UHGV virus genome: UHGV-0114988
DNA from: a virus
Length of the DNA stretch: 22,338 nucleotides
Reading direction: 5' to 3' (one strand)
Positions within the stretch are counted from its first letter, which is position 1, and each line of letters begins with the position of its first letter. A model generated the notes under the pieces. That model did no database searches and was not told where the DNA came from. It saw only the letters and a list, made by a program, of their open reading frames with translations. A program made the position numbers and the translations under genes. This document shows positions 1 through 13,063 of the stretch, piece after piece.

Positions 1-108
1 CTGCGCTTTGTAGGTGATGGCGTTATCGCGGTAATGATTCAGCCCCAGACTAAGCGCACCACAGGCCACCAGCAGGGCAATGATGACCACGCACAGTACG
101 CGGTTCAT
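1..108 (-). CDS. Rz: Rz-like i-spanin, N-terminal 36 codons (gene continues past window start)
   Basis: Minus-strand translation from ATG at 106-108 gives MNRVLCVVIIALLVACGALSLGLNHYRDNAITYKAQ: an N-terminal TM segment followed by NHYRDNAITYKAQ, which matches the lambda Rz N-terminus as I recall it. Confidence 0.7.
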   Translation of the reverse strand, partial: MNRVLCVVIIALLVACGALSLGLNHYRDNAITYKAQ

Positions 109-109
109 T

Positions 110-208
110 TCACCACCAGCGTATCTGACCGATGAAATAACCGGAGGCCATAATCACAAACACCAGCCAGATAAGAATGAACTTCCAGGTGGATAATTTT
201 TCAGCCAT
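110..208 (-). CDS. Hypothetical 32-aa hydrophobic peptide (MAEKLSTWKFILIWLVFVIMASGYFIGQIRWW)
   Basis: ATG-initiated ORF, single predicted TM helix, GGGAG about 9-13 nt upstream. Its TGA stop lies 1 nt before the Rz ATG, suggesting translational coupling. Below the ORF-track size cutoff. Confidence 0.3.
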   Translation of the reverse strand: MAEKLSTWKFILIWLVFVIMASGYFIGQIRWW

Positions 209-283
209 CACTCGAATCTCCCGAATCAGTTTGCTAAAATCAAACACACTTTCCCCTTTGACTTTTCCAGAGTCAGGAAACAC

Positions 284-318
284 AAAACCCCGCTTGCAGC
301 CAACAAACGGGGTTTTTA
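284..318. terminator. Hairpin AAACCCCG...CGGGGTTT flanked by T-runs on both strands (bidirectional terminator-like)
   Basis: Inverted repeat with about 8-bp stem and 15-nt loop; TTTTT follows on + strand and TTTTGTGTTT on - strand. Sits between the endolysin stop and the small ORF/Rz. Confidence 0.3.
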
Positions 319-406
319 CTTTTATTCACTTAGTTTTTGTCAGTTCGCAGGATTTCGTGTTATCCGTCCGTGTGAGAAAACCGCATTTTTCAGCAAAATA
401 TTCTGC

Positions 407-940
407 TTATCTGTCAATTCCCCAGCACGCCAGCGCACTCTCCTGGTCGCGACGGGATACCTGACCGTAACAGTTGTTTGAGCGAATACGGCAGTCTCTG
501 CCACCGTCCTTAATCCACCAGCGAATCGCTTCGCATGCTCCCCTGCGATCACCTGCATTAATTCGTCTGTAAAACGTCGACGGGAAACACTTACCGGGAC
601 CAATGTTGTACGGACAGAATGACGCGATCCCCGCTTTCTGGGGTTCGGTCAGCGGCACTCTGATGTTTTTCTCCACCCACGCCAGCGCTTTATCACGCTC
701 AATGGCGTTAACCTGGTCGCATTTTTCCTTCGACAACTTCATGCCCGGGACGACAGGTTTGCCATCCACCATGATGGCACCACGGCAGATGGTCCAGATC
801 CCCGCACCATCACGGTATGCCGTGGTGTGGTTACCTTCTTTTTCGTCAAGAAACTGGTCGATGATTTCAGGCGCAGAAGCACCTGCCGCAATCAGCGCCA
901 GAACGGCTACCGATAAACCATAGTGGAGTTTCTGAGTCAC
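407..940 (-). CDS. R: Phage endolysin, T4-lysozyme-like (GH24) with N-terminal signal-anchor-release (SAR) segment
   Basis: 177-aa ORF; hydrophobic N-terminus LSVAVLALIAAGASA, then a catalytic region (EGNHTTAYRDGAGIWTICRG) typical of phage lysozymes. Directly downstream of the holin. GTG start as given by the ORF track. Confidence 0.85.
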   Translation of the reverse strand: MTQKLHYGLSVAVLALIAAGASAPEIIDQFLDEKEGNHTTAYRDGAGIWTICRGAIMVDGKPVVPGMKLSKEKCDQVNAIERDKALAWVEKNIRVPLTEPQKAGIASFCPYNIGPGKCFPSTFYRRINAGDRRGACEAIRWWIKDGGRDCRIRSNNCYGQVSRRDQESALACWGIDR

Positions 941-944
941 CTAA

Positions 945-1160
945 TCACTCTCCCCGGGCAGCCTTGCGACGGTCCTCTTTAATTTTGAAATACAGATTCG
1001 TCAGGTATGTCAGGAACCCCAGACACAGGCTCCCCAAAACCCCGATAGCAGCCCACTGTGACGGAGTAACCTGATCCAACCACTGTAGAAACCAGTAACC
1101 CGCACTGCCCGCAGAAGTACCATAGGCTATGCCCGTTGATATTTTTTCCATCTGATACAT
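945..1160 (-). CDS. S: Class II holin, phage 21 S21-like pinholin (71 aa) with dual-start motif
   Basis: [31 protein letters not shown]...[13 protein letters not shown] closely resembles S21 as recalled. Met1 and Met4 give the holin/antiholin dual-start arrangement. Sits immediately upstream of the endolysin. Confidence 0.85.
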
Positions 1161-1236
1161 ATCCCCGCCCCGACAGACCTGTGCTACCGGAAATAAAAAA
1201 GGCCATCAGTGTTTTACTGATGGCCCTGCCCCGCCG

Positions 1237-1527
1237 TTACAGCATTGTGCCCGGTTCGGGTTGTGTGTCTGTCATATCCGTCACCGGTGACTCCGGCTGA
1301 ATATCACCATTTTCCGTGGTGACATCTTCCGCCTGTGGTTCCGGAAGCAGTTCCGGGGATGGTTCCGGCTGTGCACCAAGCAATTCATCCAGAATGGCAT
1401 CCACTTCTGCATCAAGACGCGCCTCAAGGTTCTGCCGAAGTTGCTGTTTCAGTGCGCTCCGGACTTCTTCAGAGCGCAGGACTTCCTTCACTGCCTCAGC
1501 AGTGACCAGCGATTTTATTTCTGACAT
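1237..1527 (-). CDS. Hypothetical acidic, Pro/Glu-rich protein (96 aa from internal ATG of track ORF 1237..1701)
   Basis: The track ORF begins with an implausible Cys-rich extension; the internal Met (MSEIKSLVTAEAVKEVL...) gives a compact gene between the nanS-p-like gene and the holin. No recognisable domain. Confidence 0.4.
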   Translation of the reverse strand: MSEIKSLVTAEAVKEVLRSEEVRSALKQQLRQNLEARLDAEVDAILDELLGAQPEPSPELLPEPQAEDVTTENGDIQPESPVTDMTDTQPEPGTML

Positions 1528-1564
1528 AGGATTTTCTCGTTGAAAGGGGTTGTCAAGAAAGTGA

Positions 1565-1747
1565 CTACGGAATGAGCGGATCTTCGGGTTTGCTTCCGGC
1601 TGACTGACTGGCGCTGATTTTCTCTGCGGCCCTTTTATCAATCTGCCTGCGCCAGAAATCGCGCACTGCCCTGTACCCACCCGAAAGAAGATACAGCACA
1701 CAGACCGCCGTACAGAAGTACAGCATCACCTGATGAACAAATGTCAT
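1565..1747 (-). CDS. Hypothetical small membrane protein (60 aa)
   Basis: ATG ORF with an N-terminal hydrophobic helix (LYFCTAVCVLYLLSGG) and a charged C-terminus, in the late operon between the esterase gene and the holin. Confidence 0.35.
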   Translation of the reverse strand: MTFVHQVMLYFCTAVCVLYLLSGGYRAVRDFWRRQIDKRAAEKISASQSAGSKPEDPLIP

Positions 1748-4103: not shown

Positions 4104-4442
4104 GCATGTAAAAAGGCTCCTGCGATGAGGAGCCTGGATATATGCCTAATCTCTGTATACAGCATGATGCCGGGTGCCTCCCGGTGAGTTCAGTATCAGC
4201 ACCTGAACCCGCACCAGATAAGGGATATAACCAACCACCTGTCGCTGATATGCCCCTCCGCACAGGGGGATTCACCATGCCAGTTTCTTTTAACAAATAC
4301 TCAGTCTGACAGGCAACTGTCAACTGACTGAATTGTGAGACATTTAAAATTTTCGGGGCATGACTGATACCCGGCTAACCACCTGATGCTTCCTTTTTTA
4401 GCAACAAACAGGTCCACCAAAGTGAGACAGAAAAAATAAGTG

Positions 4443-4519
4443 TGGCGCGTTGTACTGGATTCGAACCAGTGACCGATTGCTTAGAAGGCAATTGCTCTGT
4501 CCGGCTGAGCTAACAACGC
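4443..4519 (-). tRNA. tRNA-Arg (anticodon UCU), 77 nt
   Basis: Minus-strand sequence GCGTTGTTAGCTCAGCCGGACAGAGCAATTGCCTTCTAAGCAATCGGTCACTGGTTCGAATCCAGTACAACGCGCCA folds as a cloverleaf: 7-bp acceptor stem, anticodon stem ATTGC/GCAAT with loop CTTCTAA, T-arm ACTGG-TTCGAAT-CCAGT, and an encoded CCA. Confidence 0.85.
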
Positions 4520-4689: not shown

Positions 4690-5112
4690 TTATAACCATA
4701 ACATATTTTTTTGTGCGCACACAACCCTTTCAGGTAGTACAACTTCAGGATCCATATCCAACCTTACTCCCTGCAGAGTCAGAGCTCCTTCCAGAAATGC
4801 TTCAGACGCCTTCAGGGATGTCCGTACGCTAAAATGACTACGGTCTATCGCCTCAGCAATTGCACGCGTTGAGAGGCCGCCTATAAAACGTAACCCCAAG
4901 ATCAGCAAATCATCGTACGGGCAAACCATACTCATATGCGCGATGCAGGTATCAATCACCGCTCCATCCTCGTCAGAGCAACCGGGTTTGCCACTGTCGG
5001 TTACGTCCCGGGAAGTAACCGACATTGAGGGCCAGTCAACCATTGAACAGTATTCCTCGCTCGCCGCCCATCGCCCCCACCGCTCCAGAACAAGTTGCAT
5101 ATCTCTACGCAT
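4690..5112 (-). CDS. Q: Late-gene antiterminator Q (phage 21/933W-type Q family)
   Basis: N-terminus MRRDMQLVLERWGRWAA resembles 21/933W-type Q proteins as recalled. Position is immediately upstream of the tRNA/late lysis region. Confidence 0.65.
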   Translation of the reverse strand: MRRDMQLVLERWGRWAASEEYCSMVDWPSMSVTSRDVTDSGKPGCSDEDGAVIDTCIAHMSMVCPYDDLLILGLRFIGGLSTRAIAEAIDRSHFSVRTSLKASEAFLEGALTLQGVRLDMDPEVVLPERVVCAQKNMLWL

Positions 5113-5242: not shown

Positions 5243-5433
5243 TGGAACCACCTGCCCCCACCTGGAACCACCTTTTCCTAACCTTTCCCTCAATCGACTT
5301 ATATATATATATGGGGTTTCTAGTAGAAAGGCGGTTCCAGTGGTTCCAGTAGTTCCGCCCCGCTTGCCACAAGGTCTGCAAGGTGGAACCACCTTCTCTT
5401 TTAGGTGGTTCCGCATGGTTCCAGCGGTTCCCA
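5243..5433. repeat. Iteron array with central (AT)7 tract; candidate replication origin
   Basis: The 11-mer TGGAACCACCT occurs directly at 5243, 5263 and 5384, and inverted (AGGTGGTTCC) at 5403. Three tandem 9-mers GGTTCCAGT lie at 5333-5356, with further GGTTCC units at 5417-5433. The tract TATATATATATAT lies at about 5298-5312. The array sits immediately 3' of the primase-helicase gene and overlaps its last codons. Confidence 0.55.
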
Positions 5434-7587
5434 AACCTTGCATTTTTTCCCCCCAATTCGCCTTTGGGCACGCTTATACCCGCAATTTTGCAAAACATTA
5501 CTAATTCGCATTTCTTCGCGTTTTCCGATGCGGTCAGGATTTAGCCCAATCGCATCACGCAAAACATCACTTGCGCGTAAAAATTCGCAATTTCGCGGAA
5601 GTTCATTAGTCATCAGGTCGGGCGTGTCGAGCCATTTCTCTACCGTTTCAAGCCAAGCATCCTTGATGGTGTACTGTTCATGGACACTCGCTGCCAGTTG
5701 TTCAGCCTCACGGAACTGGATACCCCCCAGACGCTGAAACACCTCACGAGCCTCAGCCCAAAGTAAAAGGAGATCTCTTTTTATCGCTTTCACGTCGACT
5801 TTCGACACTTCCACGGGGAGCCAGCGACGGTTACCAGTCTTGTCCGCAAGGAATTCGTCCTCATTGGTGGTACCAACGAACAGCAGGCGACGAGGAAACT
5901 GGGTGGCGAACTCCCGGTATTTCGGGATCCAGTTTTCGTGAGTACGCGTCACAAACGCTTTGATTGACTCCAGCTCTTTGGTATTAAGTCCGCGCAGTTC
6001 ACCAATCTCTGCCACCAGCCGACCACGCATTTTTCGAGCGAGATCATCGTCTTTTTCGGCAAAAGAGATTTCAGTAAAAAACGCAGGATCAGGGCTCAGT
6101 GCCTCCACTCCGGAAGACTTACCGCAGCCCTGCGGACCAACGAGGATCGGCACCATATCCGCTTTGATGCCTGGCTCCAGTACTCGCCCCGCCAACGCGG
6201 TCCACATGTACATAGACACCGCACGGGTATAAGGCGTGTCGGCGGTACCGAAGTGCGTATGGTAGAAACATTCGATGCGCGGCACGCCATCCCACTCCAG
6301 TCCGTTCAGCCAGGTGATCGCTGAATCGAATGGTTGTTCATCGGCTGCAAGTAACACCACATCGCGAATAAGTTCACGGCCAACAGGTTTAAATCCCCGC
6401 TTTTCCATCGTGATGCGCAGGCGCGCATAATCCGCATCGGTGAATGCCCGCCATTGTCCGGATCCTGCCGGGGCAAACATGATTTCGTCGCGGAACTGGT
6501 CAAAGCGAATATCGATGTCCACAAAATCAGGACGTACTACTGCTTTGGCTGCGTTGCTGATGGTTGCCTCGATACGCCCCCATTTATCACGCTCGAAAGC
6601 AGGCAGCGGTAAAGGTTCCGCCACTTCGATGCTGGTCAGATCTTCGAAATCGTCGTTGCGGATCCCGATGGCATTCAGGAAATCTCCGTCATCACGATGC
6701 GCGCAACTGGCATGCAGGCATTTAAAATGCCCCTGCTCAAAGCCTGCGGTTCCCGCAGGAAAATAAACTGTGCTTGTTGGATCGCCTCCGCTACTGTGGC
6801 CGTCTTCAAACGGACAGCGGATATATCGTTCACCGTTTGCACCATCCAGCAGCGTCCAGCCATTGGCATCAAGATATTCAGCTGTATCATCCGTCGCGCC
6901 GGGCGTGAATGCTGAACGGTCGCGCATCTTCGTGTTGCCCGCTTCGGTGGTTACCGACACAGGGAGTTGTTCAGCCAGGCGCTGCCACAGCGTTTCAAGC
7001 TGCTCACCTGTAATAGCCGGAGGTTCATCCGGCAAACCACCGTCCCATTCAATACGCGCGCCGCTGCTGTGCGTACCACAGGCAACGAACTGCTGCCCGT
7101 TCGCCAGCAACTCGATAATGCCCATATCCCCCGCCAGGCGATGGATACGCTTACGGAAATCACCATCAACGGCCAGCAGATACAGACACTTATTACTGTT
7201 TGCTCGCCAGCGTCGCGGCGGCGACTCACCCAGAAGTTGCACAAGTGTTTTGCGAATATCTGCCTGAATGTCTTCATCTTCGCTATCGCAGTCCAGCGCC
7301 AGCCAGCCATGGCCTGTACGCACGCAGATGCCATAATCCGGTTCATTCGACCAGCGGGCAAAATCATGCTCAGTAACAACATGCCCGGTCCATTGAGCAA
7401 TACCGGTGACCTGGCGGTCCCGGTTATAGCGACTCGGCGTCTTACCCAACGCTTTCAATTTACTATCAGGGGATATGGTCGCACTGGGGTTACATACAAC
7501 TGGGAGAAGATGAGCAGTCCGCCCCAATACCAGGTCGAAATGAAACCACTCATCAGGCGTAGCTCCCCATGTTTTGCTATCGGACAT
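5401..7587 (-). CDS. Replication primase-helicase: N-terminal PrimPol/AEP-like domain fused to a VirE / P4-alpha-type Walker-A NTPase domain, 728 aa
   Basis: Acidic DxD-type motif (WLALDCDSEDED) in the N-terminal half. Walker A ILVGPQGCGKSSG and surrounding region resemble phage/plasmid primase P4-family C-terminal (VirE-like) domains. AAGGTG RBS; ATG at 7587 directly follows the cro-like stop. Confidence 0.8.
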   Translation of the reverse strand: MSDSKTWGATPDEWFHFDLVLGRTAHLLPVVCNPSATISPDSKLKALGKTPSRYNRDRQVTGIAQWTGHVVTEHDFARWSNEPDYGICVRTGHGWLALDCDSEDEDIQADIRKTLVQLLGESPPRRWRANSNKCLYLLAVDGDFRKRIHRLAGDMGIIELLANGQQFVACGTHSSGARIEWDGGLPDEPPAITGEQLETLWQRLAEQLPVSVTTEAGNTKMRDRSAFTPGATDDTAEYLDANGWTLLDGANGERYIRCPFEDGHSSGGDPTSTVYFPAGTAGFEQGHFKCLHASCAHRDDGDFLNAIGIRNDDFEDLTSIEVAEPLPLPAFERDKWGRIEATISNAAKAVVRPDFVDIDIRFDQFRDEIMFAPAGSGQWRAFTDADYARLRITMEKRGFKPVGRELIRDVVLLAADEQPFDSAITWLNGLEWDGVPRIECFYHTHFGTADTPYTRAVSMYMWTALAGRVLEPGIKADMVPILVGPQGCGKSSGVEALSPDPAFFTEISFAEKDDDLARKMRGRLVAEIGELRGLNTKELESIKAFVTRTHENWIPKYREFATQFPRRLLFVGTTNEDEFLADKTGNRRWLPVEVSKVDVKAIKRDLLLLWAEAREVFQRLGGIQFREAEQLAASVHEQYTIKDAWLETVEKWLDTPDLMTNELPRNCEFLRASDVLRDAIGLNPDRIGKREEMRISNVLQNCGYKRAQRRIGGKKCKVWEPLEPCGTT

Positions 7588-7932: not shown

Positions 7933-8607
7933 ATGATTGATACTACCGATATCCTTTCTCAAAACATCAAGTACCTGATGGACAAAGCCAAGATAAGCTC
8001 GATAACTGAGCTGGCACGTCGGTTACAGCTGAACCAACCAACGCTACACAGGCTGGTATCAGGAGAGGTGAAAGATCCGAAATACGCAACGTTAAAGCAG
8101 ATCGCCGACTACTTCCACGTGTCACCAATAGACTTGGCAGAAAGGAGCCTTCAAGAAATGGAGAAAGAGGACGCGACAGGTATAAAAACGTATATTTCTC
8201 TTAGGTTTAATAAAGTACCTGTTTTGGGAAACACTCAGCTAGGCGTTGGAGGACTTTGGAGCGACACCCAATATTCAGTAGGTAGCAGTGATGGTTTCAT
8301 ATACTGGCCGACAAAGGATGAAGATGCATACGCCCTGAAATGTGTTGGTGATTCAATGATGCCTAGAATCAAAGAGGGGGAGTTCGTAATCGTCGAACCC
8401 AACCACGACTACACTCCTGGTGATGAAGTACTTGTGGTTACCCGGGACGGTGAGGTCATGGTTAAAACCTTCTTGTTCGAACGCGATGGCCTGTTCCATC
8501 TAATGTCTGTAAATGAAGATCATCCACCAGTCAGAGTACCACGCGAAAACATTGAAAAAATCCATTACGTGGCGGGGATCGCCAAATCCGCGCTACGTAT
8601 GTACTAA
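7933..8607 (+). CDS. cI: CI-like prophage repressor: N-terminal HTH plus C-terminal LexA/S24-type autopeptidase domain
   Basis: N-terminal HTH (SITELARRLQLNQPTLHRLVSG); C-terminal GDSMMP (Ser nucleophile) and VMVKTF (Lys) consistent with an S24 Ser-Lys dyad; 224 aa. Confidence 0.85.
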   Translation: MIDTTDILSQNIKYLMDKAKISSITELARRLQLNQPTLHRLVSGEVKDPKYATLKQIADYFHVSPIDLAERSLQEMEKEDATGIKTYISLRFNKVPVLGNTQLGVGGLWSDTQYSVGSSDGFIYWPTKDEDAYALKCVGDSMMPRIKEGEFVIVEPNHDYTPGDEVLVVTRDGEVMVKTFLFERDGLFHLMSVNEDHPPVRVPRENIEKIHYVAGIAKSALRMY

Positions 8608-12720: not shown

Positions 12721-13063
12721 GCAAAGGGGAATATGCCCAGAGCTACCTGTATTGTTCTGGTTAGCACCCAGTCGCCCTGCTACCCCGATATTGACTCATC
12801 GCCCCCTTCCGGTTTATGCTCACCGAATCTCCCAAATGGAGATCGGGATTTGCAACCCGGAATTGTTAGGGGCGACACCAGACGCGCCAGCGTCTTTTTT
12901 ATTGTCGCAAGCTTTGCCACGTTCGCATTATGGCGGGCTGGCGGGGGCGCTTCGGCGCGCCGGTTTCCTCTAACGCCGGTATTGCAAACCTCGTCAGTTC
13001 GCCACCCATATGAGATTTGCAACTCAGTGGTGGCGGTGAATTTCACCGTTAGAGGTAACTGTG

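What the first reader, a model, noticed from the sequence alone, without database searches (positions are those of the whole stretch)
110..406. Endolysin and Rz separated by about 300 bp containing a hairpin and a 32-codon hydrophobic ORF
In lambda-like lysis cassettes R and Rz are adjacent or overlapping. Here the endolysin stop (407) and the Rz start (108) are separated by a segment with a terminator-like inverted repeat (284-318) and a small ORF encoding a single-TM peptide, whose stop is 1 nt from the Rz ATG. The peptide could be an additional lysis-timing or membrane-active component, or the segment could be a decayed insertion.
Basis: seen in the sequence. Interest (0 to 1): 0.35.

Follow-up and report, generated by a model that had tools for sequence, protein, structure and literature searches.

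The report
Guarded small membrane-protein cassette before Rz
The gap between the phage endolysin and Rz genes holds a mobile ~215-bp cassette, widespread but uncharacterised, made of a terminator hairpin and a conserved 45-residue membrane peptide gene, and it probably also encodes an antisense RNA that keeps the peptide silent until late lytic growth.

Summary
The endolysin ends at 407 and Rz starts at 108. A 14-bp hairpin plus T-run lies at 316..284, and a small ORF stops 1 nt before the Rz ATG. The conserved gene is 45 codons from GTG 247, not 32. dN/dS is 0.05-0.27 and it is the only open frame in 17 homologues. The product is one long helix with a C-terminal transmembrane half (phrog_6632, function unknown).

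It is neither decayed nor lysis-specific. Hairpin, leader and ORF (window ~324..110, GC 44% against 54-57% in the flanks) move as one unit. The unit sits before i-spanin genes of unrelated lysis cassettes and inside baseplate or tail operons, from E. coli to Pseudomonas and Azoarcus. It is present in 897 of 5426 complete E. coli genomes.

No sense promoter exists. Codons 3-5 and 11-12 show no synonymous change, and they coincide with an antisense extended -10 (TGCTAAAAT) and its -35 position. The predicted ~85-nt RNA would cover the start codon and Shine-Dalgarno and end at the hairpin.

Best reading: a late-gated, type I toxin-antitoxin-like membrane-peptide cassette. Expression and toxicity are untested.

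The parts
945..1160 (-). Class II (phage 21 S-type) holin, 71 aa
   Evidence: Pfam PF04971 Phage_holin_2_1, E 5e-35.
407..940 (-). Endolysin R, 177 aa, with a hydrophobic Ala/Gly-rich N-terminus (SAR-like by reading)
   Evidence: ORF. Pfam PF00959, E 3e-24. Annotated 'lysozyme' in near-identical genomes.
325..406 (-). Conserved non-coding spacer after the endolysin stop. It is not part of the mobile cassette and its function is unknown.
   Evidence: About 88% identical in ant-type Stx phages over query positions 1-109. Alignable in Salmonella SPN3UB. Similarity to Rac-SA53 and E. fergusonii starts only at ~322-324.
284..316 (-). G+C-rich hairpin, intrinsic-terminator-like, flanked by an A-tract (330..317) and a T-run (283..271). 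It marks the 5' end of the cassette.
   Evidence: 14 pairs. Conserved with compensatory changes. More stable in the sense orientation (-20.8 vs -13.7 kcal/mol). Present upstream of the ORF in 20 of the 21 lineages read in full; absent in L124/L125.
248..283 (-). Leader with Shine-Dalgarno GGGGAA (256..251). It can fold into a small hairpin that pairs the SD with the terminator's U-rich tail.
   Evidence: Folds. The same architecture recurs with different sequences in most homologues, but z-scores are weak.
110..247 (-). Small ORF of 45 codons plus stop: GTG 247..245, internal ATG 208..206, TGA 112..110. The product is MFDFSKLIREIRVMAEKLSTWKFILIWLVFVIMASGYFIGQIRWW.
   Evidence: phrog_6632, E 1.4e-29. 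PGAP WP_000459345.1. dN/dS 0.05-0.27. Only open frame. AlphaFold gives a single helix over residues 4-44, pLDDT 86.7. Best 19-residue hydropathy window is 24-42, mean 2.13.
212..240 (+). Predicted antisense promoter inside codons 3-12 of the small ORF: -35 TCGAAT 212-217, 17-nt spacer, TG 232-233, -10 TAAAAT 235-240
   Evidence: Coordinates. Same position in 13 of 17 homologues at >=8/12. Zero synonymous variation at exactly these codons. The shared scanner finds it with the TG flag in Pseudomonas phage locus L016. At 8/12 it is below that scanner's 9/12 threshold in the window itself.
246..330 (+). Predicted cis-antisense RNA of ~85 nt. It is complementary to the start codon, SD and leader, and ends at the hairpin and its U-tract (inferred, no expression data).
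   Evidence: Folds as a 5' hairpin plus terminator, -22.6 kcal/mol, z -3.97. Covariance model R1 finds one such 'head' per cassette and only this one in the window.
1..108 (-). 5' part of the Rz (i-spanin) gene, cut by the window start. Its ATG lies 1 nt after the small ORF stop (TGA-A-ATG).
   Evidence: The homologue in strain G1/2 is PF03245, E 7e-50.

Best explanation
The segment is a ~215-bp mobile small-gene cassette (window ~324..110) inserted at the endolysin/Rz junction of a Q-dependent late operon.

Shown:
- It encodes a conserved 45-residue single-helix membrane protein.
- The gene always travels with a terminator-like hairpin ~35-45 nt upstream of its GTG/TTG start.
- It has no sense-strand promoter of its own.
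- In this prophage it lies downstream of a Q antiterminator gene.

Inferred:
1. The hairpin stops ordinary RNA polymerase. The peptide is therefore made only from Q-antiterminated late transcripts.
2. An extended -10 promoter inside codons 3-12, on the opposite strand, makes an ~85-nt antisense RNA. That RNA pairs with the start codon and Shine-Dalgarno and ends at the same, bidirectional hairpin. It would silence leak-through translation in the lysogen.
3. This much repression (terminator, non-ATG start, paired SD, antisense RNA) marks the peptide as harmful to the membrane. The module would then work like a type I toxin-antitoxin pair whose toxin is released only late in lytic growth.
4. Late in lytic growth it may help collapse the membrane potential and so favour lysis or release.
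For: Coding:
- dN/dS is 0.05-0.27 with third-position bias and no indels.
- It is the only frame open in 17 homologues.
- The family has ~41 clusters at 50% identity, all 32-86 aa.
- The model is one helix over residues 4-44, with a hydrophobic C-terminal half.

Mobile unit:
- Similarity to Rac-SA53 (baseplate context) spans window 322..110. Similarity to E. fergusonii (GH19 endolysin, DUF2514 spanin) spans 324..105.
- GC is 43.7% against 54.3% and 56.5% in the flanks.
- The contexts are listed.
- The hairpin covaries.

Late gating:
- No sense promoter was found in any homologue between hairpin and start.
- Q (PF06530) lies upstream on the same strand.

Antisense RNA:
- TGC-TAAAAT lies at 232-240 on the + strand, at the same position in 13 of 17 homologues.
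- Codons 3-5 (GAT TTT AGC) and 11-12 (TTG CGA) have zero synonymous variation. Codons 7-9 score 0.47-0.62 and codons 15-44 score 0.57. This matches -10 and -35 blocks with a 17-nt spacer.
- No conserved mRNA structure in the CDS explains this.
- Six unrelated N-terminal sequence classes behind the same kind of head all carry an antisense -10-like hexamer at +6..+19. Control ORF starts score 24% at >=4/6 and 5% at >=5/6.
- The shared scanner reports the site with the TG flag as the only promoter-like site in the Pseudomonas locus, against 0.1 expected.
- The A-tract upstream of the hairpin is conserved, which gives the antisense RNA its U-tract.
- The one relative lacking the hairpin also has a defective -10, TAATAC.

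Precedents: hokW-sokW in Stx phage Sp5 aids phage release (PMC8621323). The asRNA STnc6030 lies in BTP1 late genes (PMC7067206).
Against: - There are no expression data of any kind for the RNA or the peptide. Nothing was found in the EHEC ribosome-profiling, TSS or Hfq-CRAC supplements held here.
- In the window the promoter scores only 8/12 with a weak -35. The shared scanner does not list it.
- The Salmonella/Citrobacter subgroup has a weaker -10, TAATAT.
- The hairpin is better in the sense direction. In the window it is a 9-bp stem with a 15-nt loop in the antisense direction, -13.7 kcal/mol.
- The SD-pairing leader hairpin is not statistically distinguishable from shuffles.
- A type I toxin normally has its own promoter, and none is seen here.
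- Toxicity is pure inference.
- The invariant codons could reflect another constraint, such as a protein-binding site or a translational pause at the rare CGA codon.
Confidence: 0.45

Rival explanations
1. A dedicated lysis accessory protein. The peptide is a small inner-membrane partner or regulator of the holin or of the i-spanin Rz (antiholin-like or spanin-gating). It is translationally coupled to Rz and tunes lysis timing. The hairpin only sets the mRNA ratio between endolysin and spanin.
For: The stop lies 1 nt from the spanin ATG (TGA/TAA-N-ATG) in the window, E. fergusonii, both Salmonella loci and Citrobacter braakii. This holds with two different i-spanin families, PF03245 and DUF2514. 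The same slot in other E. coli prophages holds one to four other small TM ORFs. From general knowledge, phage P2 has a membrane-protein gene (lysA) between its endolysin and spanin-equivalent genes.
Against: About half of the independent lineages carry the cassette between baseplate or tail genes, far from any lysis gene. Holin and endolysin types vary freely. No holin or antiholin family matches. The 1-nt junction is absent in the non-spanin contexts. This rival does not explain the synonymous-site pattern.
Confidence: 0.2
2. A lysogenic-conversion or superinfection-exclusion moron. The peptide is made in the lysogen, from read-through or from an unrecognised promoter. It protects the host membrane against incoming phage DNA or another stress, as the HK97 gp15 moron does.
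For: Presence/absence between syntenic late genes, low GC and location in tail operons are classic moron traits (PMC3594210). Small inner-membrane proteins are common exclusion factors.
Against: No sense promoter was found in any homologue. The terminator is upstream rather than downstream of the gene. The start codon is always GTG or TTG. There is no PADLOC hit. These features point to minimal expression in the lysogen.
Confidence: 0.15
3. The antisense RNA is the main product. The constant 'head' (promoter, leader complement, terminator) is an sRNA gene expressed in lysogens. It acts on late transcripts of related superinfecting phages, or in trans through its C/U-rich anti-SD 5' end. The peptides downstream are interchangeable passengers.
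For: The head is shared at 81-87% identity by cassettes whose ORF bodies are unrelated. Similarity to L126/L127 covers window 700..250 and then resumes at ~124..1. STnc6030 is a precedent (PMC7067206).
Against: The ORF itself is under strong purifying selection across genera, so the peptide matters. No Rfam family matches. No expression evidence exists.
Confidence: 0.1
4. Non-functional remnant: a decayed insertion with a chance ORF and the endolysin's terminator.
For: PGAP leaves the ORF unannotated in many genomes. The hairpin count alone is not above chance.
Against: dN/dS is 0.05-0.27, the 45-codon frame is kept from E. coli to Pseudomonas, and the hairpin covaries.
Confidence: 0.02

Closest known systems
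Type I toxin-antitoxin modules with a 5'-overlapping antisense RNA (SymE/SymR, hok/sok; hokW-sokW of Stx phage Sp5)
   Same: A small hydrophobic peptide under 60 aa. A predicted short antisense RNA whose promoter lies inside the 5' end of the ORF. That RNA covers the start codon and SD. Prophage location. HokW is reported to aid phage release (PMC8621323).
   Different: There is no sequence similarity to any known toxin family. No promoter for the toxin mRNA is seen; instead a terminator sits directly upstream and the gene is embedded in a late operon. The antisense RNA and the toxicity are predictions only.
Phage morons (HK97 gp15, lambda bor/lom)
   Same: A small extra gene present or absent between conserved late genes. 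Lower GC than the flanks. A hairpin terminator at its border. Found in tail operons and lysis regions of many phages.
   Different: Classic morons carry a sigma-70 promoter upstream and a terminator downstream, and they are expressed in the lysogen. Here the terminator is upstream and no sense promoter is found.
P22 ant/sar antisense control
   Same: A short antisense RNA is made from within the start of a late-region accessory gene and pairs with that gene's ribosome-binding site (general knowledge; cited in PMC2629481).
   Different: The target there is a 300-aa antirepressor with its own promoter. No membrane peptide is involved and the sequences are unrelated.
Intra-operon terminators of lambdoid late operons
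   Same: An intrinsic-terminator-like hairpin lies inside a Q-antiterminated operon. Proposed roles are partial termination or blocking of non-antiterminated transcription (PMC8022706).
   Different: This hairpin is tied to one mobile gene family, moves with it into non-lambdoid contexts, and has conserved tracts on both sides.
PHROG 6632
   Same: Full-length match, E 1.4e-29.
   Different: The family has no assigned function, so the match only shows that the ORF has been called in other phage genomes.

Membership tests
PHROG 6632 (phage protein family, function unknown) | Significant full-length match to the profile | tested here: met
   E 1.4e-29; residues 13-57 of the 57-aa frame align to profile positions 1-45 of 45.
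Holin / antiholin families | Sequence membership in a described holin family | tested here: not met
   No Pfam or NCBIfam hit at E <= 1 other than noise. The neighbouring 71-aa gene is the holin, PF04971.
Holin / antiholin families | Constant association with lysis genes | tested here: not met
   Homologues lie between baseplate or tail genes in SEN34, Rac-SA53, Yersinia, Pantoea and Pseudomonas phage R656.
Holin / antiholin families | Changes lysis timing when removed or overproduced | not testable with these tools
   Needs lysis curves of deletion mutants.
Type I toxin-antitoxin system | Small (<60 aa) hydrophobic protein with one transmembrane helix | tested here: met
   45 aa; helix 4-44 with pLDDT 86.7; hydropathy window 24-42 with mean 2.13.
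Type I toxin-antitoxin system | Antisense RNA that pairs with the toxin mRNA | tested here: inconclusive
   A conserved antisense extended -10 and a bidirectional hairpin predict an ~85-nt RNA. No transcript data were found.
Type I toxin-antitoxin system | Toxin mRNA made from its own promoter | tested here: not met
   No sense promoter-like site lies between hairpin and start in any of 17 homologues.
Type I toxin-antitoxin system | Homology to a known toxin family (Hok, Ldr, Ibs, TisB, ShoB, Zor and others) | tested here: not met
   No Pfam or NCBIfam match.
Type I toxin-antitoxin system | Toxicity on overexpression, relieved by the RNA | not testable with these tools
   Requires expression experiments.
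Moron | Extra DNA between genes that are adjacent in related phages, with deviant composition | tested here: met
   R and Rz overlap in K-12 DLP12 and Qin. Cassette GC is 43.7% against 54-57%. The unit boundaries are 322/324..110/105.
Moron | Own promoter upstream and terminator downstream (an autonomous transcription unit) | tested here: not met
   The terminator is upstream and no sense promoter was found.
Intrinsic (rho-independent) terminator | G+C-rich stem followed by a U-run, with the structure conserved | tested here: met
   14-pair stem plus T-run. Compensatory changes occur at 4 of 12 pairs and 6 of 11 pairs. Termination itself was not tested.
Known anti-phage defence proteins (PADLOC) | Match to a defence-system profile | tested here: not met
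   No hit for this peptide or for four other slot peptides.
Described RNA families (Rfam 15) | Match at or near the gathering score on either strand of 1-1900 | tested here: not met
   Only sub-threshold hits on the + strand: rimP leader at 29 bits against 47 (E 0.033) and RefA9 (E 2.5).

The most novel reading that the evidence does not exclude
An undescribed, widespread family of 'late-gated' toxin cassettes. A constant head carries a bidirectional terminator, an SD-pairing leader and a cis-antisense RNA gene. Behind it sit interchangeable single-helix membrane peptides, many ending in (I/V)(R/K)WW. The cassettes are parked between endolysin and spanin genes, or in tail operons, of temperate phages across Proteobacteria. 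The peptides are depolarising agents released only by antiterminated late transcription. They help set the moment of lysis, and the RNA keeps lysogens safe.
Probability: 0.25. Interest if true: 0.75.

Novelty: new variant of a known kind. Interest (0 to 1): 0.55.

Why it matters
The cassette sits in the lysis region of classic and medically relevant phages, including H-19B, many Stx1/Stx2c phages and TL-2011c. It is present in about one in six complete E. coli genomes (897 of 5426). Yet it is usually unannotated and has never been studied.

If the model holds, three things follow. First, the standard lambdoid holin-endolysin-spanin cassette would gain a fourth, regulated membrane component. 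Second, the model would give a concrete function to intra-operon terminators of late operons. Third, it would define a new type I-like toxin/antisense design in which the toxin has no promoter of its own.

It also bears on toxin release from Stx prophages, which depends on lysis. Even if only the conservative part holds, genome annotation should call the 45-codon GTG ORF.

Tried and rejected
- **+ strand promoter-like site 125-154** (CTGACC-18-CATAAT). I considered it as a promoter for an antisense RNA. I rejected it because the hexamers are not conserved in the homologues.
- **Sense promoter between hairpin and ORF.** None was found in 17 homologues.
- **Known RNA families.** Rfam at gathering and at E <= 5 gave nothing credible in 1-1900.
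- **Known protein families.** Pfam, NCBIfam and PADLOC were negative. Cluster names are all 'hypothetical' or 'phage protein'.
- **Conserved mRNA structure in the CDS** as the cause of the invariant codons. There is none: -0.99 kcal/mol and no covariation.
- **Leader hairpin significance.** Mean z is only about -0.5 (sense) and -1 (antisense), so it is reported as recurrent but not proven.
- **Antisense protein-coding frame.** No antisense frame stays open.
- **Literature and supplement searches.** I searched for the peptide, the DNA motif or an sRNA at this site in EHEC, EPEC and Salmonella data sets. Nothing was found.
- **Profile-based locus searches with distant members.** These failed for lack of a conserved stretch. 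P0086 gave no locus.
- **Polymorphism count.** It is circular for codons 3-6, because the regex fixed them, and is not used as evidence.
- **K-12 prophages.** They lack the cassette, so K-12 small-protein data sets do not help.

Full report
**Observation**

On the minus strand the window carries a lambdoid late region.
- A Q antiterminator gene lies at 5112..4690 (PF06530).
- Downstream are a tRNA and STnc100, a SASA esterase gene and a DUF826 gene.
- Then come a phage-21-type holin at 1160..945 and an endolysin at 940..407.
- After a 298-nt gap, the Rz ATG is at 108. The full-length homologue in strain G1/2 is PF03245.

The gap contains a 14-pair hairpin with a T-run at 316..284. It also contains a small ORF whose TGA (112..110) is 1 nt from the Rz ATG.

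In E. coli K-12 DLP12 and Qin the endolysin and Rz genes overlap. The gap is therefore an addition.

**The ORF is a real gene of 45 codons**

The frame is open from GTG 247. PGAP annotates exactly this 45-aa product in strain JB2, and phrog_6632 aligns to it end to end at E 1.4e-29.

Homologues were found in many hosts:
- E. coli, E. albertii, E. fergusonii, Salmonella, Citrobacter, Trabulsiella, Yersinia, Sodalis and Brenneria
- Pantoea, Symbiopectobacterium, Providencia, Pseudomonas phages and an Azoarcus MAG

Among six diverged copies dN/dS is 0.05-0.27. Substitutions are concentrated at third positions and there are no indels. No other frame on either strand stays open in the 17 homologues tested.

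A search of 1.84 billion representative proteins found 41 clusters, all 32-86 aa. The protein is therefore never a domain of something larger. AlphaFold predicts one continuous helix over residues 4-44 with pLDDT 86.7. The N-terminal 20 residues are charged (4 positive, 3 negative) and residues 24-42 are strongly hydrophobic. No Pfam, NCBIfam or PADLOC family matches. All source names are 'hypothetical' or 'phage protein'.

**The hairpin belongs to the small gene, and the two move together**

In 20 of the 21 lineages read in full, a G+C-rich hairpin lies 35-45 nt upstream of the start codon. It has an A-tract before it and TTTTnTGTTTC after it. The stem sequence differs between lineages but pairing is kept.

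Similarity between the window and phage Rac-SA53 spans window 322..110, and there the unit lies between baseplate genes. Similarity to E. fergusonii spans 324..105, and there it lies between a GH19 endolysin and a DUF2514 spanin. Cassette GC is 43.7%, against 54.3% for R and 56.5% for Rz.

The contexts fall into two groups.
- **Directly before an i-spanin gene.** These cassettes have quite different holins and endolysins: the window type, Salmonella L008 and SPN3UB, E. fergusonii, and two Citrobacter loci.
- **Inside baseplate or tail operons.** These are SEN34, Pantoea, Rac-SA53, Yersinia, Brenneria, Symbiopectobacterium, Sodalis, Azoarcus and Pseudomonas phage R656.

The unit is thus a mobile cassette of late operons, not a fixed lysis gene and not a decayed remnant. 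In E. coli it is common. 897 of 5426 complete genomes hold at least 80% of it, including UTI89 and 042. It is also in phage H-19B and many Stx1 and Stx2c phages.

**The R-Rz slot is a cassette site**

Other E. coli prophages share the same endolysin, spacer, hairpin and leader up to the start codon (window 700..250). They share the last few codons plus Rz again (window ~124..1). Between these points they carry other small single-TM ORFs:
- one of 37 aa in O157:H7 strain NE92
- 60 aa plus 43 aa in O104:H4
- four in tandem in O25:H4 and in phage 783R2

Several end in (I/V)(R/K)WW, followed by TGA-N-ATG of the spanin. Stx2 phages carry ant in this slot. E. fergusonii has two hairpin-plus-ORF units in tandem, the first followed by what looks by eye like a 12-nt remnant of an Rz start. 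A covariance model of the head finds one head per cassette, one in the window (246-330, + strand) and none in K-12.

**How the gene is probably controlled**

No sigma-70-like site exists on the sense strand between hairpin and start in any homologue. The start codon is always GTG or TTG. The leader can pair the Shine-Dalgarno with the U-rich tail of the hairpin in most lineages, although this fold is not statistically strong. Sense transcription must therefore come through the hairpin. In this prophage that is plausible only for Q-modified polymerase; this step is inferred.

The hairpin is more stable in the sense orientation in 13 of 18 homologues, because G-U pairs there become C-A mismatches on the other strand. 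That supports a real sense-direction terminator.

**Evidence for an antisense RNA**

Synonymous variation along the ORF is very uneven.

| Codons | Fraction of same-residue pairs using different codons |
|---|---|
| 3-5 (GAT TTT AGC) | 0 (16 of 17 homologues) |
| 7-9 | 0.47-0.62 |
| 11-12 (TTG CGA) | 0 |
| 15-44 | 0.57 |

Codon 12 uses CGA, a rare arginine codon, in all 16 homologues that have arginine there. Read on the opposite strand, codons 3-6 are TGC-TAAAAT, an extended -10. Codons 11-12 lie 17 nt upstream of it, at the -35 position (TCGAAT in the window, TCGCAA in most homologues).

- Thirteen of 17 homologues pass an 8/12 scan at the identical position.
- In the Pseudomonas phage locus the shared scanner reports the site at 9/12 with the TG flag. 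It is the only promoter-like site in 350 bp, with 0.1 expected.
- RNAalifold finds no conserved mRNA structure in the CDS that could explain the invariant codons.
- Six unrelated N-terminal coding sequences sit behind the same kind of head. Each carries an antisense -10-like hexamer at +6..+19: TAAAAT, TATACT, TAGACT, TAAGAT, TATGCT and TATAAT. Only 24% (>=4/6) or 5% (>=5/6) of 181 control ORF starts do so.

Transcription from this site would start at about the peptide's start codon. It would run across the SD and leader and meet the hairpin, whose upstream A-tract supplies a U-tract on that strand. The predicted RNA is window 246..~330 on the + strand. It folds into a 5' hairpin plus terminator at -22.6 kcal/mol, z -3.97. 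The one relative without a hairpin also has a crippled -10, TAATAC.

**Caveats on the antisense RNA**

- In the window the site scores only 8/12 and the shared scanner does not list it.
- The Salmonella/Citrobacter group has the weaker TAATAT.
- In the antisense direction the window hairpin is a 9-bp stem with a 15-nt loop.
- No transcript or ribosome-profiling evidence could be found.

**Interpretation**

The conservative conclusions are well supported: a conserved membrane-peptide gene, with its own upstream hairpin, on a mobile cassette.

The mechanistic model is a peptide gated by a terminator and by a cis-antisense RNA, made only from antiterminated late transcripts. I rate it about 0.45.

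That the peptide is membrane-toxic and aids lysis is an inference. It rests on the layered repression and on analogy with type I toxins. One such analogy is hokW-sokW of Stx phage Sp5, which speeds phage release (PMC8621323). An antisense RNA inside late genes also has a precedent in STnc6030 of BTP1 (PMC7067206). Intra-operon terminators of unknown role have been noted in late operons (PMC8022706).

The rivals are:
- a dedicated lysis or spanin accessory
- a lysogen-expressed exclusion moron
- an sRNA-centred element with passenger peptides

They are listed with the results that would separate them.

**Comparison with known systems**

The module works most like a type I toxin-antitoxin pair of the SymE/SymR or hok/sok design. 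It is not a member of any described family:
- It has no homology to known toxins.
- It has no toxin promoter.
- The RNA is unverified.

It fits the moron concept in distribution and composition. It fails the classic definition of promoter upstream and terminator downstream. I found no paper describing it.

Noticed in passing
window 325-406 (minus strand): The ~80-95 nt directly after the endolysin stop are conserved in ant-type Stx phages (about 88% identity) and are alignable in Salmonella SPN3UB. They lie outside the mobile cassette. There is no ORF and no Rfam hit, and the function is unknown.
   Followed up: partly
window 4104-4309 (-), 4446-4519 (-), 12827-12900 (+), 12926-13009 (+): Rfam gathering-level hits were found for STnc100 sRNA, a tRNA, an isrK-like RNA and a C4 antisense RNA. 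STnc100 and the tRNA sit between Q and the SASA esterase gene, as in Stx-phage late regions.
   Followed up: no
window 1199-1227 (-) and 1160-1890: A second terminator-like hairpin lies just upstream of the holin. A 2026 preprint places the PasA/PasC sRNAs between the sialic-acid esterase and the holin in such prophages (10.64898/2026.05.13.724894). I did not test whether a Pas sRNA is present here.
   Followed up: no
window 1237-1747 (-): The DUF1378-like ORF (1747..1565) and the DUF826 ORF (1701..1237, GTG start) overlap. In the near-identical strain G1/2, PGAP marks the DUF1378 gene as incomplete. This suggests a small deletion or fusion here.
   Followed up: no
L007 1670-2155; L128 980-1468; L127 987-1315; L126 1049-1162: The same R-Rz slot in other E. 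coli prophages holds one to four tandem small single-TM ORFs of other families (phrog_1115, phrog_4906 and others). They sit behind the same hairpin and leader, and several end in (I/V)(R/K)WW.
   Followed up: partly
L012 2690-2925: E. fergusonii has two hairpin-plus-small-ORF units in tandem before its DUF2514 spanin. The first ORF (50 aa, ending VKWW) is followed by TGATATG and what looks by eye like a 12-nt remnant of an Rz start. This suggests cassettes are added at the stop/ATG junction.
   Followed up: partly
window 5401-7587 (-) and 7933-8607 (+): A 728-aa ORF lies directly upstream of Q. A 224-aa ORF on the opposite strand looks, from its sequence alone, like a CI/LexA-type repressor. 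This is an unusually compact early region, and I did not analyse it.
   Followed up: no
L124/L125 1470-1600: An environmental relative of the peptide (VNRISKAKPLRWVRTMTDKLSPPRFW...) lacks the upstream hairpin. Its antisense -10 position reads TAATAC, without the final T. This is a single lineage in which both features are lost together.
   Followed up: partly
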